Shown one piece after another: positions 1,348 through 62,696 of a stretch of DNA of 64,000 nt. The position numbers and the translations under genes were made by a program. The notes beneath the pieces were generated by a model. That model made no database searches. It was not told where the DNA came from and saw only the letters and a program-made list of their open reading frames with translations. The first letter of the stretch is position 1; every line of letters starts with the position of its first letter. This stretch comes from Octopus vulgaris (Eukaryota). Where the stretch lies: positions 103,850,001 to 103,914,000 of the forward strand of contig OX597814.1 in assembly GCA_951406725.2 (NCBI GenBank), given 5' to 3'.

Positions 1348-1453
1348 TACATATATATATAACGGGAAGGTTTATGAAAAGAAACAAAAGACGAAGGCAG
1401 GTGGAGTACAAACAAACAAATGTATTAGTATAGCGCTCAGGAATAGAAAAAGT

Positions 1454-1489
1454 CTTTTACGTTTCGAGCCTACGCTCTTCGACAGAAAG
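1454..1489 (-). ncRNA. Minimal hammerhead-like motif with variant core CUGUCGA, inside a repeat at ~1361-1545
   Basis: Minus strand: cttt-CTGTCGA-A-gagc-gtag-gctc-GAAAC-GTA-aaag. Stem I 4 bp, stem II 4 bp, loopless palindromic stem III. A related copy lies at 20222-20257. Confidence 0.65.
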
Positions 1490-1627
1490 TTACACTGAAA
1501 AAAACAAGGAGAGAAAAAAATGCGTGTAGTGGCTAACGATCTATCATGGCGTCCTGACTTCGGACAGTGGTCAGACGCGAGAGGGACAGTAGGGGAGATA
1601 AAAGGGTCAAGTGACTTCCAATATATA

Positions 1628-1848
1628 TGTAAATATAATATGTGACAATTATTCGGTAGCCATGATAAAATTCCGAGTTTCGGATGTCGGGGCGGAAACC
1701 CACACCGCCATCTCTTCAGTTATCGGGCCATCGAAAAATGCTTAATGGCACGATAACTGAAGAGATGGTGGCGTGGGTTTCCGCCCCGAAATCCGAAACT
1801 CGGAGTTTTATTATGGCTACCGAATAATTGTCACATATTATATTTACA
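1628..1848. repeat. Fold-back inverted repeat (~104 bp arms) carrying an HHR-like motif in each arm
   Basis: Arms 1628-1731 and 1745-1848. Plus arm 1752-1812 reads gataa-CTGAAGA-(long stem II)-GAAAC-TCGGA-GTT-ttat; the mirror copy is 1664-1724 on the minus strand. Confidence 0.85.
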
Positions 1849-1925
1849 GATAAATTCCTCTATTTACATAAGGCCGAGGTCTCTTTCATTCTTTTGTTGT
1901 CTTACCATTTCTATCAATATCTATG

Positions 1926-4808: not shown

Positions 4809-5216
4809 AATATATATATATATATATGAGAGAGATAGAAAATGAGATGTTTGAGCATAAAATATATGCATATACACTCATTCACACATTAACGCTTAAT
4901 CTTTAAAACCTAGTGCGGTAATATAATTAACTGTGTATAAAATGAAATAACTCCTTTAACTGCATGCTTGCCAAAAACACTGAAGAGCGTCGTGAAAATA
5001 TAAGAGTTACTCCCCTTGAAATTTTGCTTCATCTCTGTTTACTTTTTTCAAAGATGGCGTCCTACTAACAGCAAAAAATTTTCTCTAATTGTAAGTCGAC
5101 AATCGTTGATCGTGAAACCGGTACTTATTTAATTTGTAATGATGTAATATGTTCCTAATATCACCATAAATTTTATTATCCAGACCTTCTGTGACTCTTA
5201 CATTTCTTTTCTTTTA

Positions 5217-5852
5217 GCAATAATAAATCTCTGAGCGAGATATAACAGTAGCTGCACGACATCGTGAAGTATATTTGCCACTTAAATGTAGCTAACCCTT
5301 AAGGGTGGATGCTACTGTAGCTTGTAGCCCCAGGAAGACACCTCCTCCAGTTGGCTATTGACACACTTACTATACCCTATCAGTATTTGCAAAGAGAAGC
5401 CATCCTTCCCATCTCCAACCTGACGTGATACACACGGACCCGAGTTTCTGAGTATTGACCCTTCATCAGCGTGTGACAATCACCGGTTGTCGATGTGAAG
5501 TGGTTCCCAATGCAAATATACAGTATACAGTCGTGCAGCTACTGTTTATACCTCGTTCAGAGATTTATTATTGCTTGTTTACACTTTTTCGAGATCAGTG
5601 ACTTTTCGTCGCTGGGAAAAGGATATATGTATTTGAGAACCACTTCACATCGACAACCGGTGATTGTCACACGCTGACGACGGGTCAATACCCAGAAACT
5701 CGGGTCCGTGTGTATCACGTCAGGTTGGAGATGGGAAGGATGGCTTCCCTTTGCAAATACTAATAGGATATAGAAAGTGTGTCAATAGCCAGCTGGAGGA
5801 GGTGTCTTCCTGGGGCTACAAGCTACATTTAAGTGGCAAATATACTTCACGA
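5217..5852. repeat. Two interleaved inverted repeats (A-B-A'-B'); the B arms carry hammerhead motifs
   Basis: A 5217-5260 pairs with A' 5530-5574; B 5262-~5507 pairs with B' ~5636-5852 (B has a ~29-nt insertion). Confidence 0.88.
5668..5712 (+). ncRNA. Type I hammerhead ribozyme motif (mirror copy 5431-5475, minus strand)
   Basis: cacacg-CTGACGA-c-gggt-caat-accc-a-GAAAC-tcgg-GTC-cgtgtg: perfect 6-bp stem I, 4-bp stem II, canonical core, GUC cleavage triplet. The mirror copy has CTGATGA. Confidence 0.8.
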
Positions 5853-7369
5853 CAAGGTAGAAAATGCTAAAATAATTTTATCATGAAACACATTTTGTAC
5901 CGGTTTCAGTCTTTTCGACTTTTTCAGCTAAGAGTAAAACAAGAAAAACAATTAAGTTGAAGAAAAAATTAAATTATATGTTTTGTAAATATTTCCATAG
6001 TCTTCAAATAGGTAGGACATTTTCCTCATTTCTTTCTCTCTTTTGCTTTGTGAAGACTCGATAGGTGGCAGATCTGAAGAAACAATGTCTTTGAGTGCAA
6101 AGAAATGTTTTGTTCTGAAGTTTGATGGTTTGATGCCGACAAAAACGGACACAATTGCTATCATTAATGAAGAAATACTGAAAGAACTCAAGAAAATCAA
6201 CACAGACCTGTTAACGTTTTTTAAGAAATTGGACTCGACACGTGAACCCAATCGGGAGAGCAATGAGGAAATCGATACGAAAAATACAACCTCCGAAATC
6301 GGCGAAAAACTTGGAAACCTATGTGAAACAATTAAAACATTCTTCTCAAACAACGCAAACCAAGGACCACCGAACGAGGAAACTTTATGGGATTTATACA
6401 TTAACAGCATAGCAAATGAAAAACCACATAGTACCACAATGTAGCAAATCACTCGACGATAGAAAGTTCGCCTTTTGGAAGGTGATCCAAAACAACAACA
6501 AAGCGAATATATCAGAAAAATGGTTTAATCTGACTCTGTTAATGCCCCACCCCCCACCCCACCCCGCAAACTCCACATCAAAGCCATTATAGATGAAGTT
6601 GCGGCACAAAGGCGCCTTAGGGAAGAATGGTACTGGAAAAAAATGGAAATAGAACTTCTAAAATTGAGGGCTCCGACAAATGAAGATAAAGTAAAATCCA
6701 TTGATGAAGAGATCAACAAAATGACTCAAGGCCCCAACCTAGAGATCTCAAAACAATGGAAAATGATTGCGACAAAGAAGAACTGAAATCCCTCCCATAC
6801 TGGGGAAAAAACGCCACTTGGTTTTCAAACTATGAAACTGTCTTTCAAACAGAATACGCTTCCAACAACCCTTTCCCAAAAATAAGAAAATCAAAACAAA
6901 ACTCAAACACAATTTCACACCTATCTAAAAAAACAAAATCATCTCCCCTGCTGAAAAAAGAATACAAGACATAACCTTAGCTTCATAACCCACCCGCGAA
7001 ACAACAACGGGGGTACACCAACAACAAAGATATAAGAAATCTCTACCCACAGGATAGACATTAGAACCCCCCACCAAGGGGATGCCAGCGTAATTTTTAT
7101 TCCAACAATCTACTTAACAACCACGTACAACAAATCCATACCACACGAAATAATTACCAACGACGGCCCTCAAAAGTATCACATCCGAACATTGAATATA
7201 GAGACACTCTTTTCAATCGTCTTCCAAGAACCCGCACCATTAATCACGACAACAGGTCACTCCACCATAACAGGTGACAACTACATAACAGCAATCATTT
7301 TTTTAGACCCAGTACACAAACACGGAGATACGAGATAGCACCGAACATAAAAGAGAACCCAGAAGGGAT

Positions 7370-9560
7370 AAGTCATCTAACTCTCAAAGAACTAACACCA
7401 GACCAAATCAAAATACTCTGCAAAGGGCTCAAATTTACACCCACCCACCCCAGTGCCCCAACTACAACGAAATGAAATAAGACGTTGCGAAATTCTGTAG
7501 AAACTTACGACTCGCCGAAGAACTATATGACGTACAACGAGGACGAATCATTAGCCAGAAATAAAAGTAACTACACCCCATCAAAAGGTAAGAACAAAAT
7601 TATTGACCATTTCTGAGAACACATTACGAATTACACATATCAACCCATACACAAACAAAAATACAAACCAAACTTCAGCAAAAAAAGAATGTTTAGCTCA
7701 GCTAAACAGATTAAAGGATGATAAAGCAATAACAATAAAAGAGGCTGATAAAAGGAGTGCAGTAGTCTTAATGGACACGCGCTGTTATATAACCCTAGTA
7801 CTATCCATATTAGAAGATACAACATATTATGAAAAGGTCCAACACTACAGTCAGCAGAAAATAATGAGAAACCTAAAACCCATGTTAAACCTATACAGAG
7901 AAGGGCTCACCGACATGGAATACGACTATATGACAAACTCCAAAAGTAAATCCAGTCAATTTTACGGCATTCCCAAGATACATAAAAGGGAAAAAATAAG
8001 CAACGCATGCAGGGAAGCCACAACATAATAGTCAAGGTACCTACACCCGATGATCTCAAATTAAGACCCATAATAGTAGGCCCAACATGCGAAACTTACC
8101 ACCTCGGCAACTTTTGAGATACCCTCTTAAAACCATTCCTCAAGCATACCAAAAGCTATATAAGTGACGACCTAGATATACTCAACTACCTCCCTGAAAC
8201 AATCAATAAAAAACCCTACAAGTATCCTTTGATGTATTCAACCTCTATTCTAATATCCCCCACAGCCTAGGAATAGAGGCAATCCAATTCTGGTTAGAGA
8301 ATTACTCCAATGACCTCCCACACCGAATCAAAATGAATTCGTAATAGAAGGGCTAAAATTCATCTTGGAGCATAACTTCGTATTCAATGACAACTTCTAT
8401 CAACTGAAATCGAGGACTGTGACAGGTACGAGAATGGCCCCTCCCTTTGCTAACCTAATCATGGGGTACTTAGGAATCACTCTTTATTGTAAAGTACTAG
8501 CAAAATACGGAATCCCCTTCTCCCTTTACATAGCAAATAACTGGAAGAGATATTTAGATGACTGCCTCATTCTTTGGCATGAAAGTACAGAGGGACTTCA
8601 AGAATTTCAAGCACTTCTGAATGGACGTGACATAAACATTCAATTTATGATGGAATATAGCCATCAACAACTTCCATTCCTCGACATCGTCATTAAGAAA
8701 CAGACACATACTATAAGCCCACGAACTTCAAGTAATATCTACCGTTCAACTCATGCCACCCTAGACACACTAGAATGAATATCCCTTTCAGCCTGGCAAA
8801 AAGGATTTGCACGATAATGTCTAATACACGACTACATGAGCTAAAAGATACACTCGTCAGCAGGAATTACCCACCATCACTAACTGATATAGGTTTTTAA
8901 CGTGCCCTACAACTCGACATCTACGAACTCAGACATATCAAACTAAAGAATGAATTACAACCTATAGCCTTATAATACATGTCCACACACAAACCCCTAA
9001 ACAATTGGGCCTTCGACACCATCCTCCAGAACATTCATTTACTAAAAAGGGGCCATAGAATGAATCAAATCCTCCAAACGCACACCATCATAAAGAGCAA
9101 AAGACAGCCCAAGTCAATGAAAAGTTTTCTAACACAAGCCCAAGTACACTTGTCGACAATATCGAAACCGTCATTAAAAAAAAATGCGGAAGACCTAACT
9201 GTGGTATATGCGTCAACCTAATTGAGGGGTCGGAGCTCTTCAAACAGGGTCAACATTTTACAGTGAAAAACAACTTCACATGTGCTTCGGAAAACCTAAT
9301 ATATGTGTTAACTTGCTCAGGGTGTTGTGAGCAATACATTGGTTAGACTAAAAACAGTCTACGCCAGAGGATGACCGTACATAGATTCCAGATTAAAATA
9401 CGGGAATAAAGAAAAATAGCATTAAGTGAAAACATCGACATTTGCACCACTAATGAACAACCCAACTTTAGAATTTTTCCCTCCATAAATTTAGGGACAA
9501 GGCAACCTATAATCAGCGCATTAGCAAAGAAACATATTTTATCGAAATCTCTTTTGAACA
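7370..9560 (+). pseudogene. PLE reverse transcriptase - Cys linker - GIY-YIG endonuclease, frameshifted
   Basis: Motifs LCKGLKFTPT, ITIKEADKRSAVVLMD, FYGIPKIHK, LRPII, FDVFNLYSNIPH, GTRMAPPFANL, WKRYLDDC, LPFLDI, CHPRHTRMNIPFSLAKRI, CGRPNCGIC, NLIYVLTCSGCCEQYIG; many stops. Confidence 0.92.
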
Positions 9561-9574
9561 CTTCCACCACATAT

Positions 9575-10720
9575 GACACGACTACGAGGATCTTAGACTA
9601 ATACCAACACAAATATTAAAATCGATAGATATATACGTTGATTTTGCTAAAGCCTTCAACTCTGTGCCACACAAACGACTCATGGTAAAATCTCTGCTAT
9701 GGGTGTGAAGAATGATCTCTATAATTGGCTGAAGTCCTTCATTCTCGGTCGGAAAGAGATAGTTACGGTTCTAGGACATTATTCTTCACCCTACAAGATG
9801 ACTTCTGGTGCACCACAGGGATCCTTTCTTGGACTCCTACTGTTTGTTACATATATTAATGATATAGATGCCAACTTGATGAATGTTACAGTGCTGAAAT
9901 ATGCAGATGACATCAAGCTGTACCTCGAAATAAAAAGAACAGATCCTATTTGCTATAGATCTTTCCTGCAATCAGACCTGGATACAATGCAGCAATGGAT
10001 CTCTGACTGGCAACTCAACCTAGCTGTGGACAAGTGCAGCACCATGAATTTTGGGAGGGAAAATCCAGTCTTTACATACTCTCTCTCAGCAACACCAATC
10101 TCAAGAAGTCTTCTAGCGGACGTGAGAATGTAAACAACGATCTGCGTTGGACAAACCACATCTCTAAGATTGTCCAGAAGGCTGAGGGAGAAGTGGGGTG
10201 CTAGCATCACTCAGTGAAACTTTTGTCAGCCGCTCTCCACCTATCTATTTAATATTGAATACGACAATGGTACATCCGCACCTGGAATTTGCATCACCAG
10301 TCTGGAACCCCTATCTTGCTCAGCATATAAATCTCCTGGAAACTGTTCAGAAACGTGCAACAAAACGAATACCCGCCGTCAGACATTTACCATACTCTGA
10401 AAGTCTTGCTTCCCTGGGCATGGATACATTGAAGCTCAGATGTCTAGTAACCAACTTGGTTGACACCCACAAGACTATCCACCATCTTTCCAACAACAAC
10501 CTTGGGCACCTTTTTGAATTCCATGACAAACACTCGCGAACATGCTTATAAAATCAACAAAAGAAAAAAAACAACACAGCACCCATGACTTTCGGAAACA
10601 TTTTTTTCCTGCTCAGAATTGAAGCATGGAATAAACTGCCTGCATCAGTTGTTAGCTTTCGAGACACCACATCCTTCAAAACTTCCATCATTCCTGAAAT
10701 CCGCCAACAGTACACCTGAT
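9575..10720 (+). mobile_element. 5'-truncated CR1-like LINE (RT C-terminal half and 3' end) nested in the PLE
   Basis: YVDFAKAFNSVPH, SGAPQGSFLGLLLF, KYADDIKLY, HLEFASPVWNP, LETVQKRATK. Confidence 0.88.
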
Positions 10721-10934
10721 GGCCTTTCTTTTTCTTTTTTCTATTTTGGAGTACATCTGAGTACTGTATACAACAATTTCTTTCATTATATCATGAAGAA
10801 CAGTCACTACCCATGAATTTATTTAGACCAGTTCCTACCACAGCTGCTACAACAACAACAGGACACTTTTAGGTCACTTGGTCGTTAAAGTAGATTCTAC
10901 GGACAGCTCTACTACTGTGTCATACCACTCCTGT

Positions 10935-11013
10935 CTTCTTCTTCTTCTTCTTCTTCTTCTTCTTCTTCTTCTTCTTCTTCTTCTTCTTCTTCTTCTTCTT
11001 CTTCTTCTTCTTC
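10935..11013. repeat. (CTT)n microsatellite
   Basis: Seen directly; it explains the poly-Leu of ORF 10878-11516. Confidence 0.97.
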
Positions 11014-11326
11014 CTCAGCTGCTGCTTAAACCATCAAACTTCAGAACAATACATTTCTTTGCACCCATAACCATTATTTCTTCAGATCTGCCCCTAACTA
11101 CCGAGCCTTCACAAAAGAAAAGAGAGAAAGAAGGAAGGAAAATGTCCTACCTATTTGAAGACTATGGAAATATTTACAAAACATTTCATTTATTTGAGTT
11201 GAAGAAGTCAAAAAGACTGAAACCGGTACAAAATGCATTTCATGATAAAATTATTTTAGCATTTTCTACCTTGTCTTATTTTCCTTATACATATCAACTT
11301 GTGTGTCACTTTTCAACCTTACATAC

Positions 11327-20167: not shown

Positions 20168-20345
20168 TGTCGCTAGCCACTACACATTGTTTATTTTCTC
20201 TTCTTGTTTCTTTCTGTGTTCCTTTCTGTGGAGGAGCGTAAGCTCGAAATGTTAAAGACTTTTTCACTTCCCGAGCGTTATACTGATACATCTGTTTGTT
20301 GTCTACACCACCTGTCTTCGCCCTTTTTTTTTGTGAATTCTCCCT
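20168..20345 (+). mobile_element. Second copy of the 1361-1545 repeat, with HHR-like motif at 20222-20257
   Basis: cttt-CTGTGGA-G-gagc-gtaa-gctc-GAAAT-GTT-aaag; the flanks align with the reverse complement of 1361-1545. Confidence 0.75.
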
Positions 20346-30510: not shown

Positions 30511-31162
30511 AAGACATTCAGGTGTCAAGGTGGTATATATGGGGTACTCTAATACTCTTATACAGGTGTCATTAACTTGCTGTTCTCAAGTGAAATCTGT
30601 TCCCAACCAAAGCTATGATGATGGGTTGATATTCTGTCTTGAAGATTAAAATATTCCTCAAACATTCAACATCTTGAAGTAAATTGTGACATCAAATGGT
30701 TTTGGCTGTTGAGACATATGTTGTCCTGTGTGCTCTGATTTTCTTCAGTGCTGACCAAAGATGATGATGGAATGTCAACGAAGAATTTTGTTTAGCTTTG
30801 CATCGTTACAGAACAAACTATTGGATGATTTGTAAGAAGTGAGTTGATTCTGAAATGAAATCTTTAATTTTGGCAAGTTTTCAAACAAGCACCAATTATC
30901 TCCTATATTCTAAAAATATGCCAATTTAAATGCCCTTGGCTCCCCTAAACAAAATAATTCATTTTACCAATTATATAAAATGTAATTTGTAAGGTAGGTT
31001 CATTTCCTGCTGAATAAACAAATATTTGAAATTTTAGTTCATCTCTTAACTATTATTGGTTATTGATCTGGGGGTTATTGGGTGTTTAAAATCTAAAAAC
31101 AAATTCTGAAAATGAATGTAAAACCTCTTGATTTCCTTAAATCCAGTGAAACATTTTAACCA

Positions 31163-31500
31163 ATTCTGTTGTGTCTGAGGAGAGTCATTTTCTTTTTGTG
31201 CCTTATAATTGAAAACACACCCACCGGTAAAATTTCCACTTTTTTCTTATTTTTATTTTCCTAAAATTTTCGTTGCGTCTTGCAACCTTTTCAATAGAGT
31301 CAAAACTATTGAAAAGGTTGCAAGACGCAACGAAAATTTTCAGAAAATAAAAATACAAAATAAGTGGAAATTTTACCGATGAGTGTGTTATATTATAAGG
31401 CACAAAAAGAAAATGACTCTCCCCAGACACAACAGAATATGCTTCAACACACAAACTCATATAAAGAATCTTGCAAACCAAACCCAAAAACGAAATATTT
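31163..31500 (+). mobile_element. Fold-back-plus-tail element, copy 1, with a U3-A8 hammerhead variant at the apex
   Basis: Arms 31163-31297 and 31306-31438, loop AGTCAAAA, ~60-nt tail; imperfect 17-bp flanking direct repeat at 31148-31164 and 31492-31508. Confidence 0.88.
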
Positions 31501-32089
31501 TATCCAATGTTTGTAAATTTTAGTTTTTTTATTTGTAAATTGAACCAAAATCAGGAATCAAAAGAAGGTTCTCATCTGTGATTTCAAAGAATTGTTAGCC
31601 AACCATAGACTTAGTTTAGATTCCAGTTGTAGAAGTCCAACAAATTGAGCAACTCAGTTATAAAATGTGAGAGCAGCCAGGTACAGGTGAACTCTTGTAA
31701 TCTGATATGAATTCCCCCACCTACCACCACCTATTGATGGTATTTAACAGAACAATGTGTAAAGGGGTTTGGCGTAGTGTAGCCACCAATTCTACATTCT
31801 CTGGACAACAAGAAACTCTGTTCCATAAAGTTAGTCATTTGTGAGTAAAACAAAACCTGGTAATTAACAACACACAGTATAATTAACAATAGAAAATATA
31901 ATTAACAAAAAAGAATTAGTAATTGTTTATCATTATGACATATTATAATTACCGAAATAGGTAATATTATTATTCTAGTTTTGGTGGAGGATTCTTTTAT
32001 GTAATTAGAGAAATTGATTGACTCATATTATCACATGCTTCCAAAATCATCATCATCATCATTATTATTGTTATTGTTGTTATTATTAA

Positions 32090-40584: not shown

Positions 40585-42750
40585 TCATCATCATCATCAT
40601 CATCGTTTAATGTTCGCTTTCCATGCTAGCATGGGTTGGACGGTTCAACTGGGGTCTTGGAAGCCAGAAGGCTGCGCCAGGCCTAGTCTGATCTGGCAGT
40701 GTTTCTATGGCTGGATGCCCTTCCTAACTCCAACCACTCCGTGAGTGTAGTGTGTGCTTTTTACGTATCACCGGCACAGGTGCCAGATGAGGCTGGCAAA
40801 TGGCCACGATCGGATGATGCTTTTTACATGCCACTGGCACGGAGGCCAGTCGGGGCAGCGCTGGCAATGGCCATGTTCGGATGGTTCTCTTACGTGCCGC
40901 CAGCACAGTTATCACTGCTACAATTTCCATTGATGTTGATTGATTTCGATTTTCACTTGCCTCAACAGGTCTTCACAAGTAGAGTTTTGTGTCACAAGAA
41001 GGAAAGGTATGCATAAGTGGAGTGGCTACATCCCAGGTAGAGGCCACGGGTTATGGTCTCACTTGTCCTGCTGGGTCTTCCCATGCACAGCATACTTCCA
41101 AAGGTCTCGGTCTCTTGTCATTTCCTCGGTGAGACCTAAAGTTCAAAGGTCATGCTTCACCACCTTGTCCCAGGTTTTCCTGGGTCTACCTCTTCCACAG
41201 GTTCCCTCAACCACTAGGGTGTAGCACTTTTTCACGCAACTATCTTCATCCATTCTCACTACATGACCATACCAGCGCAAACGTCTCTCTTGCACACCAC
41301 AACTGATGCTTCTTAGGTCCAACTTTTCTCTCAAGGTACTTACACTCTGTCAAGTATGAATACTGACATTACACATCTATCAGAGCATACTGGCTTCATT
41401 TCTTGCGAGCTTACGCATATCCTCAGCAGTCACGGCCCATGTTTCACTGCCATGTAGCATGGCTATTCGTACACATGCATCATACAGTCTGCCTTTTATT
41501 CTGAGCGAGAGGCCTTTTGTCACCAGCAGAGGTAAGAGCCCTCTGAACTTTGCCCAGGCTATTCTTACTCTAGCAGTTATACTTTCAGCACACCCACTCC
41601 TGCTACTGACTTGGTCACCTAGGTAACGGAAACTATCAACAATTTCTAGTTTTTCTCCCTGGAATGTGGCAGAAGTTGGTCTCTGTGCATTTTCAGTGTT
41701 TATTGCTCCTGAGCATCTGCCACATACAAAAACTATCTTCCTAGTTACCCTTCCTTTGACATTGCTGCACCTCTTATGTGTCCATAGCTTACACTTGATG
41801 CACCTTATAGAGTTTCTACCTACGCCTTTTCTACAGATCAAGCAGGGCCATCTACCTGAAGGCGTTTGTGATTTGCCTGCCTTCCTACTTATTAGGACTT
41901 TGGTTTTAGCTAGGTTGATTTTAAGGCCCTTCGATTCTAATCCTTGTCTCTACACTTGAAACTTTTCCTCTAGTTCTGATAGTGATTCAGCAATTAGAGC
42001 AAGGTCATCAGCATATAGGAGCTCCCAGGGGCATCCTGTCTTGAATTCCTCCGTTATTGCCTGGATGACTATGATAAATAGGAGGGGGCTGAGGACTGAA
42101 CCTTGGTGGACCCCTACGTCTACCCTGAATTCTTCAGTGTACTCATTGCCAACCCTCACCTTACTTACAGCGCCTCTGTACATGGCTTGCACAGCTCTCA
42201 CTAACCATTCATCTATCCCTAGTTTCCTCATTGACCACCAGATAAGGGATCGGGGGACCCTATCAAAGGCTTTCTCCATGTCAACGAAAGCTAGGTACAG
42301 GGGCTTATCTTTGGCTAGGTATTTCTCCTGCAGCTGTCTTACCAGAAATATGGCATCAGTGGCACTTTGCATCCTCATTTAGCGCACATTTCTCTCCTAC
42401 CACATCACGATTCTCTCTCACACACTGTCTTGTCACACGAAATACCTCAAGTCTTTGGTCCTCACGGCGTAGAACATTGGCAAATTTTTTCTTATCTGCT
42501 TCCCCTCTGGCTAAATAAACCTGCCTCCTAGCTTCACTTTTGGCAGTCTGATACAGTTCCCTGCTACCACCATTCTTCCAGTCCTTCCTAGCCTGTCTCT
42601 TTTCTCTAATAGCCCTATCTACAACATTGTTCCACCACCACGTTATTTTGGGTCGAGAGGGGACTTTGCACCAACTACAGATCTGGTCAGTGGCTCTCAG
42701 CAGGTTGTCCCTTAGAAACCTCTAGTTGTCCGTTGTCCCTTAGAAACCTC
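40585..42750 (-). mobile_element. 5'-truncated RTE-clade LINE with a PHD-like finger after the RT core; internal deletion near 42368
   Basis: LYLAFVDMEKAFDRVPR, GVHQGSVLSPLLF, ELLYADDL, VDSFRYLGD, MLHGSETW, RRLRWYGHVVRM, RGRPRKTW; (GAT)n 3' tail; a few stops and frameshifts. Confidence 0.93.
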
Positions 42751-42975: not shown

Positions 42976-43378
42976 CTGTTGTGTCTGGGGAGAGTCATTT
43001 TCTTTTTGTGCTTTATAATTTAACACACTCTTCGGTAAAATTTCCACTTATTTCTTATTTTAATTTTCCTAAAATTTTCGTTGCGTCTTGCAACCTTTTC
43101 AATAGTCCTGACTCCATTCACTCAATCATTTAAATGTACGACTGTGGCTGTTAGCAACTCTGGTGTTGTTTTCTGTTTTCAAGACTATTGAAAAGGTTGC
43201 AAAATGCAATGAAAATTTTAGGAAAATAAAAATAAGAAATAAGTGGAAATTTTACCAATGAGTGTGTTAAATTATAAAGCCCAAAAAGAAAATGACTCTC
43301 CCCAGACACAACAGAATATGCTTCAACACACAAACTCATGTAAATTATCTTGCAAACCACATCCAAAAATGAAATTAT
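42976..43378 (+). mobile_element. Fold-back-plus-tail element, copy 2 (75-nt spacer)
   Basis: Arms 42976-43107 and 43183-43314; same arms and tail as copy 1. Confidence 0.88.
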
Positions 43379-45299
43379 TAAATTTAATAATCTTTATGAT
43401 TTTTATTTAAAAGAAAAAAAAATTAATTATCTATGTTAGCACTGATTAGCATTTGTGCAGACTTTGACATGACACTAATTAACAAAATATCACAGAACAG
43501 ATACAGTTTGCTTTCTAATACCATCCTGGCATTTAATTTATTAAACCTGCTGAGATAAAAGAAATGCAAAAGCCATGTGATCATATTTGTAATTATTCTG
43601 TTTTAATGTGAGGTTGATAATTGGTGATGGGGCTGTCCGTTGCACATACACAAAATAACCTTTGTCTCTGGGCAATTATTCTGTTTTTGGTTAAAACTTG
43701 ATATTCAGTTAGATTTATCATGAAAAGCATCCCTTTCCTCAGCTTAAAGCATGTGATCTGACACTTTATGAGGTAGACACTTAAATGTATCGGCCACTCC
43801 CTGACAGGTTCATGGTCAAGCCTGTGGTAGTGGAGGCCACCAGTGTTCGTGACCCCCTCCTCTCCAAACCACCTTCCTCTTCCCCGTTATCGAAGCAGAG
43901 ATGGCTATATGCAAGCGCAAGTCCCATGAAGAAGAAAAAAGATATGATTCAGGCAGAGCCCTTCATCAAATTTAGAATACTCTCTATGTATAAACAAAAT
44001 TAACTTTTGTAAAATGATAGTTGAATATGACATTGTTTATCAAGTGACTCACATTTGCAAGCTGTTCACTCGATCGTTTAAATGTACGACTAGGGCTGTT
44101 GGCAACTCTGCTCTTGTTTTCTGCTTTCAATTACGTTTATCTTCGAGTTAAATATTTAAGTGGTTTCAAATGCTTTCAGACGTTAGCTGTTTATGTAGAA
44201 ACTAATTTTATTAATAACATTGAGACAACACTTTCCTCATTAACCCTTCTCTAATTCTTAAACGATATCCATTTCTGTTACTCCTGCTGTCTATCTTTCA
44301 TATCATAATTTACATTGATGACTAATCATTGATGATCAATGACTGATCAGCTTGTTTAGCTTTTAATCCAGCTGAACATTAATGCTGCTCTAACTAAATA
44401 ATAGATTAACATTATTAATATTTACAGCCTTGTAACTAAACAGATATGTAAACTTGTTTTTTTTTACATCATACATATATATTTCAATGTGTGTGTGTGT
44501 TTGTGTAACTGTGTGTGTACAAGCACAGGTGTGGCTGTGTGATAAGATGCTTGCTTCCCAACCAAATGGCTCTGAGTTCAGTGGCACCTTGGGCAAGTGT
44601 CTTCTACTGTAGCCTGAAGCTGACCAAAGCCTTGTGAGTGGATTTGGTAGAAGGAAGCTGGAAGAAGTGTGTGTGTGTGTGTGTCTTTTGCACACACTCA
44701 CTCCCATCAGCTTGACAACTGCTATTGGTGTATTTGCATCCCCATAACTTTGCAGTTCAGCAAAAGAGATTGATAGAATAAGTACTAAGCTTAAATTTAA
44801 AAAAGTCCTGGGGTTGATTCATCTAACTACAAATTCTTGAAGGCATTGGTGCCCCAGCATGGCCACAGTCTAGTGGCTGAAACAAGTAAAAGATAAAAAA
44901 AACATATAACCCATGTAGTTTGTGTGGTTGTTTAAAGTGAAGAAGGGTTTTTCACCACCAACCCACTCTCTCGTCCCTGGCCCTTTTGAATTCAGTGGTA
45001 AGACTTGGTCCAGACAACTTGGGATCGAAATAGCTGCAGTGAATGGCCAAGATATCTTCCTTTGCTGCATATTGCTCTCTGCACTCTACAATGTGTTGCT
45101 ATGGCCACCTTCCTCTCCATTCTGTCATGAAGGTTTCTTCCTCTTAGTCTATCGAATCTACTCTTCATATGCATTGGTAGGCCAGCCTTGGACATAGTTT
45201 TATACCTATTGGTTACTTTGTCATGCAGAGTGAATTGAAAATACACCGGAGTGTTTAGTTATCTGTCAAGTCACAACAAGGACACAACAGACAGATAAT

Positions 45300-47523: not shown

Positions 47524-48080
47524 TATTATTATTATTATTAAATTCATGTTGACTGAGATTTTAAGCTTCATTTGGTGTTTCTTTTACTGTTTTAAAGTTT
47601 TTCCTCTTTTGTTTTCTAGAGTGTCAGACCAATAATTTCTTATTTTTTTCCTTTCCTCCCCCCCCTCTCTCTCACTCACACACATACATCGGTTCTTTCC
47701 CTTCCTGCAGATCAAGTGAGAATGCTTCCTTTCCTGGAATTGAAACAACTCCTTCCTACACCTGACTGGAAATATATTCATTCGCTTCAGTCCCCTCCCA
47801 CCTTTGTATTGAGAATTCACTTCAACAGTGGTCTTCCCTTTTCCTCTAAAATATGGGACCTACTGATGCTGACCTCGCAAAATATGGGGCCTTGTCAATT
47901 TCATTCTGATCTCTAAAAATATGTGACCCTGGTTGGAATTAAACTGACAAGGTCACACATGTTGGAAGGTCAAAACTGAATTGACCATGGTACTTGATTG
48001 CTATCTATTAACCCTAGCACATGCTTGGTATTCAATATATTGGTCATGCAAAATTAAGTCAACTGCAGGGGGTGCCTCCT

Positions 48081-48370
48081 TCATCACTCTTGTCTGCCAC
48101 TCATCACTCTTGTCTGCCACTCATCACTCTTGTCTGTCACTCATCACTCTTGTCTGTCACTCATCACTCTTGTCTGCCACTCATCACTATTGTCTGTCGC
48201 TCATCACTATTGTCTGCCGCTCATCACTATTGTCTGTCGCTCATCACTATTGTCTGTCGCTCATCACTATTGTCTGTCGCTCATCACTATTGTCTGTCGC
48301 TCATCACTATTGTCTGTCACTCATCATTCTTTTCTGCCACTCATCACTCTTGTCTGCCACTCATCACTCT
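48081..48370. repeat. 20-bp minisatellite, ~14.5 copies
   Basis: Unit TCATCACT(C/A)TTGTCTG(C/T)C(A/G)C. Confidence 0.96.
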
Positions 48371-48716
48371 TTCTTTTATCTTTGTTAAGAAATACAGCAT
48401 TTTTTTCAGTTTATTAATGTTGATATTCAGTTTACGGAATTTGGTAAGCACTTGTAGAATACGTCCATCTTTATTCTTTTAATGTCCTCTTTTTCAAGCT
48501 TGCATGGCTTAGGTGGAACTTGTTGAGGCAGCTTTTCTACAATTGGATGTCCTTCCTGTTGCCAATGTTCACCTTTTACCAAACAAGGTAATAGTTTCCC
48601 ATGACCAGACGTATTTTTCATGGAGGACTTGAAATGAACAACACTGCTTGTATGATGGGGATGCTCATTTACAATTATTACATGGTATCAAGACGTGGGT
48701 ACATACTAACATGCAT

Positions 48717-55430: not shown

Positions 55431-55813
55431 GGAAGAAGGTTGAAATACTTTCAGCTTCTCAAAAGGGAAAGATCTTTGGGGCCTACATGCCTGGAGGCCA
55501 CGGGTCCTTGTGCTTGCTTAGAGAAATAATGTTACAATTGTAGTTTCAAATTGCGGATCTTTTCTAAAAGATGGACAGAATTTTCTACTTAACTAAATAA
55601 TTTGAAACTTCGTATACTGGTAGAATGTGTCAATCCGATCTTTCAACTTAGTTGTGGGACATTTTGTCATACATCAATGGATTCCGTATGCTCCTCACAC
55701 CAAACTCTCACCATCACCTCAGCAAACTTTATACAGAAATTTGGGCATATACCTGTGCACATAGTTATAACATATGTACTTAACCATTAAGGCTCTGGGA
55801 CAGAAGCAATTTG

Positions 55814-56849
55814 GGATCTTTTCTAAAAGATGGACAGAATTTTCTACTTAACTAAATAATTTGAAACTTCGTATACTGGTAGAATGTGTCAAAAGAAAAC
55901 ATTAATTTGAATTAGTTTTTTTGAGAAAAATGTATTTTGTAACTTTTACGTAGTTTAATTCTTCGAATTTTAACCAATCGTATTCTCCGTTTTGACCTCA
56001 ATTCATTTGCTGCCGTGTTATTCGTCCTTATCCATGTCTTCTGTCTTCAAAGACATGTTTATTTCAATGTCATCCCTGACTTACGGACCGATTACCTGTG
56101 TGTGTGTGTTTTTGTTGTGTATGTGTGTGCGTGTGTGTGTGTGTGTTGTGTATGTGTGTGTGTTATTGTTGTGTGTGTGTGTGTGTGTTATTGTTGTGTA
56201 TGTGTGTGTGTGTTATTGTTGTGTATGTGTGTGTGTGTTATTGTTGTGTATGTGTGTGTGTGTTTTTGTTGTGTATGTGCGCGTGTGTGTACGTGTGTCT
56301 TTTTGTTGTGTATGTGTGCATGTGTTGTGTATCTCTTAAATCGATGAATTTCGTTGCCCAATAAAAATATCAACGATATTTTTTTAACTTTGATATCGTT
56401 AATATTTTTATTGGGCGACGAAATTCATCGATTTAAGAGATACACAACACACACACACACGCACACATACACAACAAAAACACACACACATACACAACAA
56501 TAACACACACACACACACAACAAACACACACACGCACACACATACACAACAAAAACACACACACACAGGTAATCGTTCCGTAAGTCAGAGATGACATTGA
56601 AATAAACATGCCTTTGAAGACAGAAGACATGGATAAGGACGAATAACATGGCAGAAATGAATTGAGGTCAAAACGGAGAATACGATTGGTTAAAATTCAA
56701 AGAATTAAACTATGTAAAAGTTACAAAATACATTTTTCTCAAAAAAACTAATTGAAATTAATGTTTTCTTTTGACACATTCTACCAGTATACGAAGTTTC
56801 AAATTATTTAGTTAAGTAGAAAATTCTGTCCATCTTTCAGAAAAGATCC
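55814..56849. mobile_element. ~1 kb palindromic fold-back element (MITE-like); extra 79-bp terminal copy at 55555-55633
   Basis: Arms 55814-56379 and 56393-56849, termini GGATCTTTTCT/AGAAAAGATCC, internal TG-rich arrays of unequal length; no TSD seen. Confidence 0.9.
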
Positions 56850-59459
56850 GAAAGATCTAAGCTGAAATTATTTGTTTAGCAACAGAGAAATATCTCTTAT
56901 CTGAAATATGAAATACCTATATACTACCAGAGGGAAAGAGAGAATTTAGGTTTGGCATTATTCACGTATTGATTAAAATAAAGAGGTAGATAGGTAGATA
57001 GATAGGTAGGTAGGTAGGTAGATAGATAGATAGATAGATAGATAGATTGATAGAAGGATGGATGGGTGGGTGGACGGGGTTTAGGAAGTGCACAAGTTGG
57101 CAATGAGGACTAAAGGGAAATTTTAGCAATGAAACAATCACATAATTAAGGACTGCAAAAGCAGAAGATAAAAAAAAAAGGGTATATATATATATATATA
57201 AATATATGTAATTTTGATATGACACCATGTCATTTAGTGTAATAATATCTGTTGTACTTGGATAAACCAACTCCTGTATTCGTCCAGCATTGACCAATTT
57301 TTTTGAATAATATATTCAGTAGACCTTTACCTTGTCACTTCATACATTTATTTAGATTGCCATTATCACACCGCCATTCCATGGATTATGTTTAATGTTT
57401 TTATCTTTAACCTATTGTTACATCCTCATTTCTCTTTACTCTGTCACATGCACACCACACACACACACACTCCTCTGTTTCTGCTGTGTGACTCTTCACC
57501 TTATCCAACCAGTTTGTATAACTGTGTACATACACGTTCTTGTACGGGTCATTATAAAAGGTTAATTGACTAAATTTGGGCATTAATTTGAATTTAACGA
57601 CTTCCAGAGATCTAAATCATTGTTTTATGCTTTAGTTGTTGTATATATTAGATGTGAACATCATCTAACCCAAGATGATGATGATGATAAACTTTTTTCT
57701 TTGTTACGATTGATATTCTTCTATGTATTATCTGCAGTGTCATTATAAATGTAGGATTGTTGTCTTCTCGTTAAGATATAATGCCAGTAATTTATTGAGA
57801 GAGATCATCAGAGTTTTCAAAGAATATATTTGCATGTATTAATTTAGAAATTGCTTTGAAAAACCTGTTGACGAAAATCATTTCAGCAAATTCATAACGA
57901 AGCTGAATAGCTTTCCTGCAAAGTTGAACCCTGTTGATGCCCATGTGCCTTAGGCCACTCCTTGTGATACGATCTCCCTCTTTAGAAGTGATTTAAATTA
58001 AAACCCTTCCATCAAAACCTCATGTTGATTTATATGCCAAATTCTAGCTTAATAATGTGGAAGTTTACTAAACGCTTCATTATTTTCAAAATTATTTGAA
58101 CGAAATAATGTGTGTTTCATCAGAAATGTGGTTAGGAAAGCATTATAAAGTAGAGCTTCCATTATAACTTGGTCCTAAAATTACAGATGACTAGAATGAC
58201 AAATAGACAGACTCTGATCGGAAACCAAATACGAAGTTGTCATTCAAATACTGATTTGAATGACTCTCCAGAACTATAGGACTTGAATGGAAACCTTGCT
58301 TGTTGGCAAAATATTCATAAAATAAATATAATTTACCTACGCAAGGTACCTGTTTACTGCTAGCAGCAACAATATCTTGTCCAGAGCAACTTTATTCATT
58401 GGATTCAAGATGTAATCTTTTGTCTCGCAGAATGTCTCACACCACACAGACGTGGCTGGATTTGCTTGCATTTATTCCAGGATAAACTTCCTCCTGAACT
58501 GTTATATCAAGCATGGCTGACTCTGAGTCACTCTGAGGTTGTGTTTTAAGGACAGAGGTACACAGACATTCCATTAAAAGCTGCTCAACTGTGCAGACAT
58601 TTTGCTTGTCGTGAGAATTCATTACACAACTCAAATTCCTGTTCTCTCTGTTGAAACCATTGCAATGACAGATTAAGCTTTATCGTTTTCTTCTTCTTTA
58701 TGTCTGGATTTAAGTGTATTATCAGTTATCAAATATTCCAGTTGTTTTGCTTCACACCTTGACTTACGTAGAAATACCTAAATCCTAAATGTCAAGACAT
58801 TATTATATTCAAGCATTAACATCTATCTCTATCTCTGTCTGTCCCCCCTCTCTCTCTCTCCCTCTCTCTCCCTATCTCACCCCTCTCTCTCTCATATTTT
58901 AAAAATTATTTCTGGGTTTAGCTCAGTTGTCTGCTGACCTAAGAACCTATATTACTGCATCTATTTTTATCTTGGGAAAATCTTTTGTACATTGTCACAC
59001 TTGTCTTTCACTTTTCCCATAGCCTTTGCTTGAAAGTCTGTCCTGTAGTGCAAGCAGGAAAAAGATTCATAGAGAATGCTTTATCTTAATCAGAATACTA
59101 ATGATGTTTGTGACACTACCACCATGACCACCACCACCACCACCACCAAAAGCAGCAACAACTAATGTCTGTTTATTACTGCATCAGTTTCTGTTCTTAG
59201 ATGAAGATTTTGATAAGAACTTTGCTATTTTGAACTGAATTCATCTTTGATCAAAAAGTTATAATTGATTACCAAATGTTCTGGGGGTAGACTGGAATGA
59301 TTAGGGTTCAAGTAGGGACTGTTGCAATCTCTGTTGGTTACAAGGGAATCATATTTTTAATTTTATGGTCAAGTCTTTTCTTTAATTTCCAGATATGATT
59401 AAATAGCTTGGTGACAATCTCCTTTTCAGTAAGCTACAACATAACAGTAGCACTTCTTG

Positions 59460-59908: not shown

Positions 59909-62310
59909 TCTAATGGATGTTTGAGTTTCTGAAGTTTCATGGGGCCTAGGTATTACTCTTCTAGGTTTTTATGAACTTTTTCATATTGATAGTTAAGCTG
60001 TAACTATTTCTGAAGTTCTGTCTGTGGAGGTATGATTGTGTGGAGGTATAACTATGTTTCTAGTGTGTGGAGGGATGACTGTGTGGCCAAATGTCTGCTT
60101 CACTGTTATGAGGAGCAATTCCATTGCTTGGTACGTTGACCAAGTATTATTTCCAACATCTTCAGGTTTAACTAAACCTTCTTAGTAAAACTGGGTAGGT
60201 AGAAACTGTGAGAGCCTATTAGATGAACTGTAGCTGTAATTCTTGGGGGTTGATGCCTTACTCTAAGTCTGCCTGGAGCTTACATTAAGGGTGCAAGGGT
60301 TGAATGACTACACCCAAGTTTTTTTACCATGTCATTCTGTGTTTACACTTGAATTATATTCAGCTACTTGTCTTCATTACCAATAAATAGAGGATTCTAA
60401 CTATTGAACAAATGTATATATTATGCATGTATATGTATACATATAGGCTTAGTCATATTCAAATGTAAGAACTGAAAGCCGAATTATTTCTGTAAGGTCA
60501 CTTCAAGTGGGGGGGGGGTATCCCATTGTTGCACCACATTGCTGCAACAAGCATTTACCACTTGTTGGTTTATTCCCGGGACCTCCTGGGTGACTGGTAA
60601 AGCTGAGTACCAGTCAGTCCCCGTCTCCACGTGATACCTCATCATCTACTATAACCATATAACCCCTGGTTGACCACCACAAGCCATCAACCCAGCTGGA
60701 TCATCAGTGAAAAGAACACAGTAAGCTGGGTCTGACTCGAAAAATTGAACAACATGGCCAAACAGTTTGGGGTGTGGCCATTGCCAGCGCCGCCTTGACT
60801 GGCTTCCGTGCCGGTGGCACGTAAAAAACACCAACCGATCATGCTGTTGCCAACCTCGCCTGGCACCTGTGCCAGTGGCACATAAAAAGCACCCACTACA
60901 CTCACGGAGTGGTTGGCATTAGGAAGGGCATCCAGCTGTAGACACACTTCCAGATCAGACTGGAGCCTGGTGCAGCCTCCTGACCCCGGTTGAACTGTTC
61001 AACCCATGCTAGCATGGAAAACGGACGTTAAACAACGAACGATGGGATTTCTGTATGACTGAAATATAATTAAAAAACACGTTAAAGTCATTCAGGTATA
61101 TTTATTCTTGTTGGTTCATCAGTTTTAAATATTTTTCTTCAAGTTTTTGCCATTATCTAAATCTATCATTTGAGGATTCCTTTTGTTTTCCTTTTGTTAA
61201 GAAATAATTTTGTCATACCTAACAACTTTCTTGATTTATTCTTATACTTATCTCCTCTCTTTGTTGTAATTTGTTCCTTAATCACTGAGGATTCTCTAAA
61301 TAAGCATCACCTTTTTAGGACGAGGAACTTTTTCTCTTGGAGAACTGCTAAATTCATTTGGTTTGCAATCAATGCTTTCTTCTTTCATAGTTCTACATTA
61401 CAACAATAAATTCATATTTTTATAAAAACAACTTTTGCTGTTTTATTACTTTTACTAAGTTTTCGTGAGACACAATTATACTTTTCTCATTTTTCTTTCT
61501 ATGAATTATAAAACCAGTTTAAATTACCTAAATCACATAGTTTCAACTAACTCAAGATCTATTTTTAAAACCTTCTCAGTGTGTCAGTTGATGGTGGGTG
61601 GAGTATATAAAATGTTTTATGTGGTTATTGAAAAAAATAGATTTGATAACAGAACCGTATTTTAAATAATTTCAAAGTACAATTAAGCATTTTTAACCAT
61701 GTGATTCCTCACTGCATATTGATAATAGGTATTTCATATAATCACCTTAATGAATTAGTAACTGATGAGAGGTATTTTATGTAATCACCTTAATTAATAA
61801 TTGCAGTTGATGGTAAATTAAACAACAAAGAAATATACATCTCCATTTGTACCTTTTTTTTCCATGGGCTAAAGAAAGGCTAAAATTCTATAGAATTTGC
61901 TCAGTATTGCAAATGTTTTGTGTCTTGGAGTTCTTCAAGTGTTGTTACCAATCATCTCCTTATACAGATCTCTTTTGGTAATACTCATATTGTATGGCAA
62001 CAATAACTAAACTGTGGAAATTGTAGTAAAAATATCAGCAACATCATCATCATCATTTGATGATGATGATGATGATATTTTCACTATAATATATCAATAT
62101 TTTTTTAATAGCAATGAAATAATTATGTTTGCTAATTGTTTAAATAAGAAACTGTTTCACACCAGTTTTATTTCTCAACTATCTTTTTCCTTTTGGATCC
62201 CTTTCATTCCTATTTTACTCAACTGAACCATCATTACCATTCAATCTTTAAAAAATCCTATTTTTACTATCAAATATTAAGAATTGTATAAAAAATTAAC
62301 ATATTTTGTG

Positions 62311-62450
62311 TATTCTGTTGTGTCTAGGGAGAGTCATTTTCTTTTTGTGCTTTATTATATAACACACTCACTGGTAAAATTTCCACTTTTTTTCTTATTC
62401 TTATTTTCCTAATATAAAGAATCTTGCAAACAGAATCCAAAAATGAAATA
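62311..62450 (+). mobile_element. Fold-back-plus-tail element, copy 3 (hairpin centre deleted)
   Basis: Left arm 62311-62412 is joined directly to the tail; 14-bp direct repeat ATATTTTGTGTATT at 62301-62314 and 62448-62461. Confidence 0.85.
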
Positions 62451-62696
62451 TTTTGTGTATTGTTGACACATAATCAATTTATTGCAGATAAATGTTAATA
62501 ACAAAATCTCATATGGACCCCTATAAGGGCCATATGGACCCCGGTTGGGAACCAGTAGTTCACACCTAAATTTTGTTTTGGCAAATTCTGTTCCTAATTA
62601 GCAGATATATTAAATGGTATTGAGATTAATATTTGTGATGTGATGGTGTAGTATTTAATATTGTTGAACAATTATTGGCAATAGTTTAAAAGTACT

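What the first reader, a model, noticed from the sequence alone, without database searches (positions are those of the whole stretch)
31163..31508. Repeated fold-back element whose arms begin exactly at a non-canonical (U3-A8) minimal hammerhead
Seen: each arm starts cta-TTGAAAA-G-gttgc-aagac-gcaac-GAAA-AT-TT-tag (intact on the minus strand, 31261-31297). This maps position-for-position onto a minimal type I HHR: core U3 U4 G5 A6 A7 A8 A9, an extra purine, a 5-bp stem II, a loopless palindromic stem III (AAUU), a UUU triplet and a 3-bp stem I. The core is identical in all four arms of copies 1 and 2 (31261, 31306, 43069, 43185). Established: positions 3 and 8 pair in active hammerheads, so C3U with G8A is a compensatory swap, and PLE pLTRs carry minimal HHRs that work as dimers. 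Inference: a mobile non-coding ribozyme-bearing family (flanking direct repeats in copies 1 and 3) that a CUGANGA motif search would miss. Stem I is short, so activity is uncertain.
Basis: partly seen in the sequence, partly recalled or inferred. Interest (0 to 1): 0.8.

Follow-up and report, generated by a model that had tools for sequence, protein, structure and literature searches.

The report
Head-to-head Penelope ends with known hammerhead
This hairpin-shaped repeat is likely two short end-pieces of a Penelope-type jumping gene pasted head to head, and the hammerhead-ribozyme-like motif it carries is real but is an already published variant that is predicted to be folded shut in this arrangement, so the find is mostly ordinary.

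Summary
Copy 1 has inverted arms 31163-31297(-) and 31306-31498(+). Two more copies lie at 42976-43408 and 62311-62454. Four arms carry a UUGAAAA...GAAA minimal type I hammerhead motif, and 3 of 4 are complete.

The novelty claim fails. U3-A8 cores, the extra base at 9/10.1, a palindromic loopless stem III, U17, 3-bp stems I and opposite-strand pairs are all published for Penelope-like element (PLE) pLTRs (PMC4209133).

Arms do not start exactly at the motif: family contigs share sequence further upstream. The family is very abundant (11,558 contigs in one run). It has two fixed 3' ends about 60 nt apart, AT-rich flanks and 12- and 14-bp target duplications, which is PLE insertion anatomy rather than MITE anatomy.

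The motif is no better conserved than the rest of the arm and shows no covariation. It is predicted to be sequestered in the fold-back. No autonomous partner was found.

One lead remains: copy 3's left arm begins at the predicted cleavage site (within 1 nt). Verdict: new member of a known kind, low interest.

The parts
31153..31164 (.). left target-site duplication of copy 1 (its last 2 nt overlap the arm end)
   Evidence: 11 of 12 identical to 31497-31508
31163..31297 (-). copy 1 inverted (short) arm, ending at the first family 3' end
31261..31297 (-). complete U3-A8 minimal type I hammerhead motif; predicted cleavage between 31264 (U17) and 31263
31298..31305 (+). 8-nt spacer, resembling the family's own upstream sequence
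   Evidence: alignment; loose ends
31306..31438 (+). copy 1 direct arm; core and stem II intact (31309-31339), stem I broken at 31341-31342; splice-donor-like site near 31377-31384 in the family majority
31439..31498 (+). about 60-nt tail present on one side only (second family 3' end)
   Evidence: loose ends behind 31438/31440 and 31496/31498
31497..31508 (.). right target-site duplication of copy 1
42976..43105 (-). copy 2 inverted arm with complete motif (43069-43105)
43106..43184 (.). copy 2 spacer; 43117-43182 is 88% like 44065-44130, possibly captured local DNA
43185..43378 (+). copy 2 direct arm plus tail; motif with 3 changes in stem II/loop; right end approximate
62301..62461 (.). copy 3: 14-bp duplications (62301-62314, 62448-62461), inverted arm whose inner end (62410 or 62411) matches the predicted cleavage site, joined to a tail fragment; no hammerhead core

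Best explanation
The element is a head-to-head pair of short arms of a very abundant repeat, likely the pseudo-LTR end of a Penelope-like retroelement, and its U3-A8 minimal hammerhead motif is likely an inherited passenger that is predicted to be folded shut in this arrangement. SHOWN: inverted arms, two discrete family 3' ends about 60 nt apart, a one-sided tail, variable inner junctions, AT-rich flanks, 12- and 14-bp duplications, and a motif matching published PLE minimal hammerheads feature by feature. INFERRED, by analogy with the anole Poseidon enzyme of PMC11167929: a PLE RT-endonuclease nicks both strands of an AT-rich target at staggered sites and primes two cDNAs at two internal start sites of the element RNA. 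The short one gives the inverted arm and the long one gives arm plus tail. Both usually stop a few bases upstream of the hammerhead core and are joined head to head, sometimes with captured DNA, and repair leaves the duplication. INFERRED: in the parent RNA the motif would cleave weakly, as a dimer or with help from the element's protein. In the inserted copies it decays neutrally.
For: Anatomy: 3' loose ends in run X1: 85, 98, 79 and 126 contigs at 31438, 31440, 31496, 31498, with AT-rich or (AT)n flanks; 7 of the 15 joints shown are strand inversions, with one side at 31298-31312 and the other at 31358-31454; duplications. The published PLE insertion scheme is an inverted 5'-truncated copy plus a one-sided tail (PMC8557442; PMC3846280), and both-strand nicking with two RT start sites defines the tail (PMC11167929). 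Motif: the PLE-linked S. mansoni(4) entry has the same UUGAAAA core, an extra purine, U17 and a 3-bp stem I; the PLE-linked Crassostrea entry has the same A-A-U-U stem III, UUU triplet and 3-bp stem I (PMC4209133 Fig. S3 text). Context: a decayed RT plus GIY-YIG PLE lies at 7368-9502 between inverted repeats, and other hammerhead-like fold-backs occur in the same window. Neutral decay: arms within a copy are no closer (93-95%) than arms of different copies (90-94%); the commonest motif changes are CpG transitions at C11.1 (6.2%) and G12 (4.4%). Sequestration: stem II pair probability is at least 0.994 in the arm alone and 0.0 in the fold-back.
Against: No RT or endonuclease ORF is linked to this family. 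There were 0 protein hits, 0 DNA hits in metagenome and viral contigs, and no similarity to the PLE in the window (best E 0.025 over 20 nt). No genome was held. The tail is about 60 nt, against a published 30-40 bp. The base between 9 and 10.1 is G, whereas the published >80% consensus has H (one listed exception). Copy 2 has no duplication. No Rfam hammerhead model matches.
Confidence: 0.72

Rival explanations
1. The arms are truncated 3' parts of a non-autonomous non-LTR retrozyme, a protein-free unit of a few hundred bases that self-cleaves, may circularise and borrows PLE enzymes for insertion. The motif would then be functional in the parent tandem.
For: The family continues upstream of the motif and no ORF was found. 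Retrozymes are argued to derive from PLE pLTRs (bioRxiv 10.64898/2026.07.22.740005). Unchecked scan notes report 358-364-nt U3-A8 units in the same genome; whether they are this family was not tested.
Against: No head-to-tail copy among the 3 copies in the window. No listed contig spans a second unit (only 16 pieces shown). Described retrozymes mostly carry canonical type I motifs, while minimal motifs are attributed to PLEs (PMC7229834). Stem I is only 3 bp, with pair probability at most 0.034.
Confidence: 0.17
2. A MITE or foldback DNA transposon with long terminal inverted repeats, moved by cut-and-paste, with a chance hammerhead-like inner end.
For: Long inverted arms, direct repeats on the flanks, no coding capacity shown.
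Against: The ends are asymmetric (one-sided 60-nt tail), the duplications differ in length (12, 14, none), the inner junctions vary, and a full hammerhead descriptor is met in 3 arms against 0 in 200 shuffles. Fixed-length duplications for DDE transposases are recalled knowledge.
Confidence: 0.05
3. A Helitron/Helentron-type non-autonomous element read on the other strand, in which stem II is the subterminal hairpin about 11 nt before the 3' end.
For: A small hairpin lies 11 nt from the inner arm end on the opposite strand.
Against: That end is not fixed (the family continues past it) and is not CTRR. Long target duplications are present. Helitron end rules are recalled, not looked up.
Confidence: 0.02
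4. The fold-back itself is the replicating unit, a selected hairpin RNA with an active ribozyme.
For: High copy number; 2 of 3 window copies keep the motif in both arms.
Against: Spacers differ between copies (8 nt, 79 nt, none). Arms of one copy differ from each other as much as from other copies. There is no covariation, and the motif is predicted to be sequestered.
Confidence: 0.04

Closest known systems
Minimal hammerheads (min-HHR) of metazoan PLE pLTRs, U3-A8 variant of S. mansoni Cercyon elements (Cervera & De la Pena 2014, PMC4209133)
   Same: Type I order, UUGAAAA core, extra base at 9/10.1, G10.1-C11.1, palindromic 15.2-16.2, U17, short stem I, mostly solo or opposite-strand pairs
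   Different: Different primary sequence and host; extra base is G; shorter stem II (5 bp); no ORF link shown here
Inverted pLTR plus tail insertions of EN+ PLEs (A. vaga Pen2/Pen2a, PMC3846280; general scheme PMC8557442; anole Poseidon mechanism PMC11167929)
   Same: Head-to-head copies, one-sided tail, target duplications, captured spacer DNA, AT-rich targets, hammerhead upstream of the two 3' ends
   Different: Tail about 60 nt rather than 30-40 bp; duplications 12-14 bp rather than 8-10 bp in A. vaga; no ORF between the repeats
Metazoan non-LTR retrozymes (PMC7229834; bioRxiv 10.64898/2026.07.22.740005)
   Same: Non-coding, abundant, carries a type I hammerhead motif, probably PLE-related
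   Different: Defined by head-to-tail monomers with at least two same-strand motifs and by circRNA expression; not seen in 3 of 3 window copies
Natural U3-A8 hammerheads (Perreault et al. 2011, PMC3088659)
   Same: Compensatory 3-8 swap, stated there to be active in vitro
   Different: The passage concerns hammerheads in general, not loopless minimal PLE motifs

Membership tests
PLE minimal type I hammerhead | Core boxes with a paired 3-8 and GAAA, in type I order | tested here: met
   U3-A8 and GAAA in 4 of 4 arms; variant published
PLE minimal type I hammerhead | Stem II with G10.1-C11.1 and an extra base at 9/10.1 | tested here: met
   5-bp stem, G-C in 3 of 4 arms and G-U in 1; extra base is G, outside the >80% H consensus
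PLE minimal type I hammerhead | Palindromic loopless stem III, NUH triplet, stem I of about 3 bp or more | tested here: met
   3 of 4 arms meet the full descriptor; 0 in 200 shuffles
PLE minimal type I hammerhead | Covariation or excess conservation within the family | tested here: inconclusive
   0 of 8 pairs with a two-sided change; 5 of 38 vs 15 of 95 variable columns, p=0.79; 0 of 11 core positions variable, expected probability 0.15; only 4 arms about 93% alike
PLE minimal type I hammerhead | Self-cleavage as a dimer or with protein | not testable with these tools
   needs a bench assay
EN+ Penelope-like element insertion | Inverted 5'-truncated copy adjacent head to head | tested here: met
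   3 of 3 window copies; inversion joints in runs X1 and X11
EN+ Penelope-like element insertion | Two 3' ends giving a one-sided tail | tested here: met
   ends at 31438-31440 and 31496-31498; length about 60 nt vs published 30-40
EN+ Penelope-like element insertion | Target-site duplication and AT-rich target | tested here: met
   2 of 3 copies, 12 and 14 bp; AT-rich flanks
EN+ Penelope-like element insertion | Same terminal repeat flanking an RT plus GIY-YIG ORF | tested here: inconclusive
   no link found, but no genome held and these collections are unlikely to contain the host
Non-LTR retrozyme | Head-to-tail monomers with two or more same-strand motifs | tested here: inconclusive
   0 of 3 window copies are tandem; the rest of the genome was not available
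Non-LTR retrozyme | Expressed circular RNA | not testable with these tools
   only assembled contigs of runs merely guessed to be RNA
MITE / foldback DNA transposon | Symmetric terminal inverted repeats and fixed-length duplication | tested here: not met
   one-sided tail; 12-bp, 14-bp and no duplication

The most novel reading that the evidence does not exclude
The U3-A8/UUU minimal hammerhead of this family cuts in vivo, and cut RNAs are reverse-transcribed. Copy 3's left arm starts at the predicted scissile bond (within 1 nt). If many of the family's thousands of copies start there, the genome itself records in vivo self-cleavage of a PLE minimal hammerhead, which RNA-seq failed to show for the anole element (PMC11167929).
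Probability: 0.12. Interest if true: 0.55.

Novelty: new member of a known kind. Interest (0 to 1): 0.14.

Why it matters
As it stands it adds one more family to a described class: PLE-type ends with a U3-A8 minimal hammerhead, in what other scan notes call an octopus-like genome (not established by my calls). It is a reminder that CUGANGA-only searches undercount these motifs, which the 2014 paper already addressed with a second descriptor. Its use would be as a large natural data set. Thousands of young copies with two fixed 3' ends allow a test of the two-start-site, both-strand model of PLE insertion, and a test of whether 5' ends pile up at the ribozyme cut, which is the open question of whether PLE minimal hammerheads cleave in vivo.

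Tried and rejected
No whole genome was held, so no genome-wide copy collection, covariance model or R-scape-type test was possible.

Rfam: 0 matches at gathering level in the window; the 59 matches at E up to 10 around copy 1 include no hammerhead family and are mostly generic hairpin miRNA models below threshold.

DNA pattern scans: 0 in metagenome contigs and 0 in viral contigs. Four 20-mer matches in bacterial MAG contigs (L001-L004) were treated as chance and not examined.

A reading frame through the motif and tail gave no protein relatives, which is weak evidence for such short queries. The upstream motif seen in loose ends is absent from the window.

Sequencing runs: no RNA holder listed on record. 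Run X23 laid 0 reads and X24 laid 69 reads of a diverged relative without the motif region, so neither tests this organism. A comparison across other organisms' runs, and a test of whether copy 2's spacer is single-copy, remain open.

RNAcofold of two motifs returned a strand-swapped duplex of stems I and II, not the AAUU-bridged dimer, so it gives no support either way. Single-arm folds have z of only -1.5 to -1.7. One search was mis-indexed by one column and is replaced.

Literature searches for G8A/C3U wording returned 0 papers.

Rejected: MITE, Helitron, miRNA precursor, a selected hairpin ribozyme unit, and the idea that self-cleavage defines the usual inner ends (4 of 5 inverted or full arms keep the whole core, upstream of the cut).

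Full report
OBSERVATION. The fold-back is present as described. BLASTN within the window gives copy 1 arms 31163-31297(-) and 31306-31438(+) at 91.9%, with the right arm running on to about 31498. Copy 2 has arms 42976-43105(-) and 43185 to about 43378(+). Copy 3 has an inverted arm at 62311-62408 joined directly to a tail fragment at 62409-62454. The 31-nt stretch from U3 to stem III occurs four times, three exact and one with three mismatches, against 0 in 100 shuffles. A full minimal-hammerhead descriptor (paired 3-8, stem II of at least 4 bp, palindromic stem III, UH, stem I of at least 3 bp) is met by 3 of these 4 arms and by 0 of 200 approximately dinucleotide-shuffled windows. The 31306 arm fails because two private changes break stem I. 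Direct repeats flank copy 1 (11 of 12 identical) and copy 3 (14 of 14); copy 2 has none.

WHAT THE FAMILY LOOKS LIKE. No genome was held. Twenty of 24 listed public runs, from 11 studies, hold the stretch or part of it. Laying four runs on 31298-31530 placed 11,558 contigs from X1 and 2,715 from X11; X23 gave 0 reads and X24 gave 69 reads of a diverged relative, so those two do not test this organism. The repeat is very abundant, though these depths are no copy number. Among the 16 loose-end rows shown (333 not shown), X1 has 3' ends at 31438, 31440, 31496 and 31498 (85, 98, 79, 126 contigs) followed by AT-rich or (AT)n sequence: two fixed ends about 60 nt apart. X1 also has 5' loose ends at 31304 and 31305 (48, 68 contigs; agreement 0.56, 0.53) that share a segment well upstream of stem I, so the family does not begin at the hammerhead. 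Seven of the 15 joints shown (12 not shown) are strand inversions with one side at 31298-31312 and the other at 31358-31454, so inversion is recurrent and its junction varies. In X1, 98% of depth reads G at 31379, which creates a splice-donor-like site at the end of a 27-codon open frame running through the motif. This resembles PLE ends where the ORF starts in the pLTR, but that frame found no relatives, so it is only suggestive.

IS THE MOTIF UNDER SELECTION? Not detectably. Among the four arms, 5 of 38 motif columns and 15 of 95 other columns vary (Fisher p=0.79). The 11 core positions are invariant, which has probability 0.15 at the background rate. In X1, 3 of 38 motif positions and 15 of 155 others carry a variant at 3% or more (p=1.0). 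For that count I used 18 of the 35 rows's table. I dropped 7 rows where the window copy differs from the majority (three of these, 31341, 31342 and 31453, still have 5-13% minority depth and could be counted without changing the result), 9 rows under 3% in X1, and 1 second allele. The commonest motif changes are CpG transitions at C11.1 (6.2%) and G12 (4.4%); G12 is a catalytic base (recalled). No pair shows a two-sided change (0 of 8). Power is low because the arms are 90-95% alike. Arms within one copy (93.2%, 94.6%) are no closer than arms of different copies.

COULD IT WORK HERE? A transcript through a fold-back carries one sense and one antisense motif, so the in-cis dimer that minimal hammerheads need cannot form. 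The plus strand of copy 1 folds as one long hairpin of -180 kcal/mol. On the minus strand, stem II has pair probability of at least 0.994 in the arm alone and 0.0 in the whole fold-back, and stem I is at most 0.034 even in the arm alone. These are predictions.

COMPARISON WITH PRINT. Cervera and De la Pena 2014 (PMC4209133; main text parts 1-2 of 4 and supplement parts 1-2 of 3 read) report a U3-A8 core in S. mansoni Cercyon PLEs with about 1,300 hits. They also report dual motifs 100-700 bp apart on opposite strands, the extra base at 9/10.1, the palindromic 15.2-16.2, no activity as monomers and low activity as dimers. Their Fig. S3 text lists a PLE-linked S. mansoni motif with the same UUGAAAA core, U17 and a 3-bp stem I, and a PLE-linked oyster motif with the same AAUU stem III and UUU triplet. 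Perreault et al. 2011 (PMC3088659, passages) report natural U3-A8 covariation. The inverted 5'-truncated copy and one-sided tail are standard for PLE insertions (PMC8557442, passages; PMC3846280, passages). Frangieh et al. 2024 (PMC11167929, parts 1-2 of 4; supplements listed but not read) show that a PLE protein nicks and extends both target strands, starts cDNA at two internal sites downstream of the hammerhead that define the tail, needs no ribozyme cleavage for insertion in vitro, and leaves no RNA-seq ends at the cut. Retrozyme papers: PMC7229834 (passages) and bioRxiv 10.64898/2026.07.22.740005 (part 1 of 5). PMC6962438 (passages) only counts hammerheads in giant squid. I found no paper describing this particular family, but the library is open-access only and Repbase/Dfam could not be searched.

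CONTEXT. The window holds a decayed PLE with RT and GIY-YIG similarity at 7368-9502. It lies between inverted repeats 5851-6131 and 11028-11275, each with a singly altered CUGAAGA-type motif. Two other fold-backs (1620-1856, 5316-5853) carry CUGANGA...GAAA motifs near their centres. None resembles the finding's family in sequence. The architecture is therefore common here and not tied to U3-A8. Earlier scan notes on the same genome and on other genomes read similar cases the same way; they are unchecked and not independent support. They did raise the retrozyme rival.

MECHANISM. Most likely a PLE RT-endonuclease nicked both strands of an AT-rich site and primed two cDNAs from two start sites on the element RNA. 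These ran back to just upstream of the hammerhead core and were joined head to head. The anatomy is shown; the enzyme and the steps are inferred from the anole system, and the autonomous partner is not identified. Four of five inverted or full arms keep the core upstream of the cut, so cleavage does not define the usual inner end. The exception is copy 3, whose left arm starts at 62410 or 62411, the predicted scissile bond within 1 nt of microhomology. By a rough post hoc estimate, a random break would land there about 2 times in 135. It is one case, and deletion of a palindrome's centre explains it as well.

VERDICT. Real, correctly recognised as a PLE-type minimal hammerhead, but a new member of a known kind. 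Interest 0.14. The most novel reading left open, a genomic footprint of in vivo cleavage, has probability about 0.12.

Noticed in passing
window 5851-11275: Decayed Penelope-like element: RT and GIY-YIG similarity at 7368-9502 with a CxxxxCxxC-type linker, interrupted or followed by LINE-like RT pieces near 9650-10550. It is flanked by inverted repeats 5851-6131(-) and 11028-11275(+), each with one change from a CUGAAGA minimal hammerhead core.
   Followed up: partly
window 5216-5853: Fold-back of another family (arms 5316-5510 and 5633-5827) with CUGAUGA/CUGACGA...GAAACUC hammerhead-like motifs with a non-standard stem III, plus extra inverted tail pieces.
   Followed up: partly
window 1620-1856: Fold-back with CUGAAGA...GAAACUC hammerhead-like motifs on both arms, inner ends about 12 nt upstream of the core, next to a (TC)n(TA)n run.
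   Followed up: partly
window 1382-1539 and 20170-20330: Two 81%-alike copies of a further family with a decayed minimal-hammerhead-like hairpin (near 1460-1485 on the minus strand, 20230-20258 on the plus strand).
   Followed up: no
window 43117-43182 vs 44065-44130: The spacer of copy 2 is 88% like a stretch about 950 nt downstream, possibly local DNA captured during insertion.
   Followed up: partly
window 62410-62411: Inner end of copy 3's inverted arm coincides with the predicted hammerhead cleavage site within 1 nt.
   Followed up: partly
window 55810-56853: Large near-perfect inverted repeat (about 97%) enclosing a CA/TG-rich minisatellite, with a third partial copy at 55549-55633; no hammerhead motif found by my scan.
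   Followed up: no
window 41380-42721: Minus-strand LINE-like RT fragments (Pfam RVT_1, E 8.9e-18 for 41950-42375) just left of copy 2.
   Followed up: no
window 48021-48431: 20-nt minisatellite, about 15-20 units.
   Followed up: no
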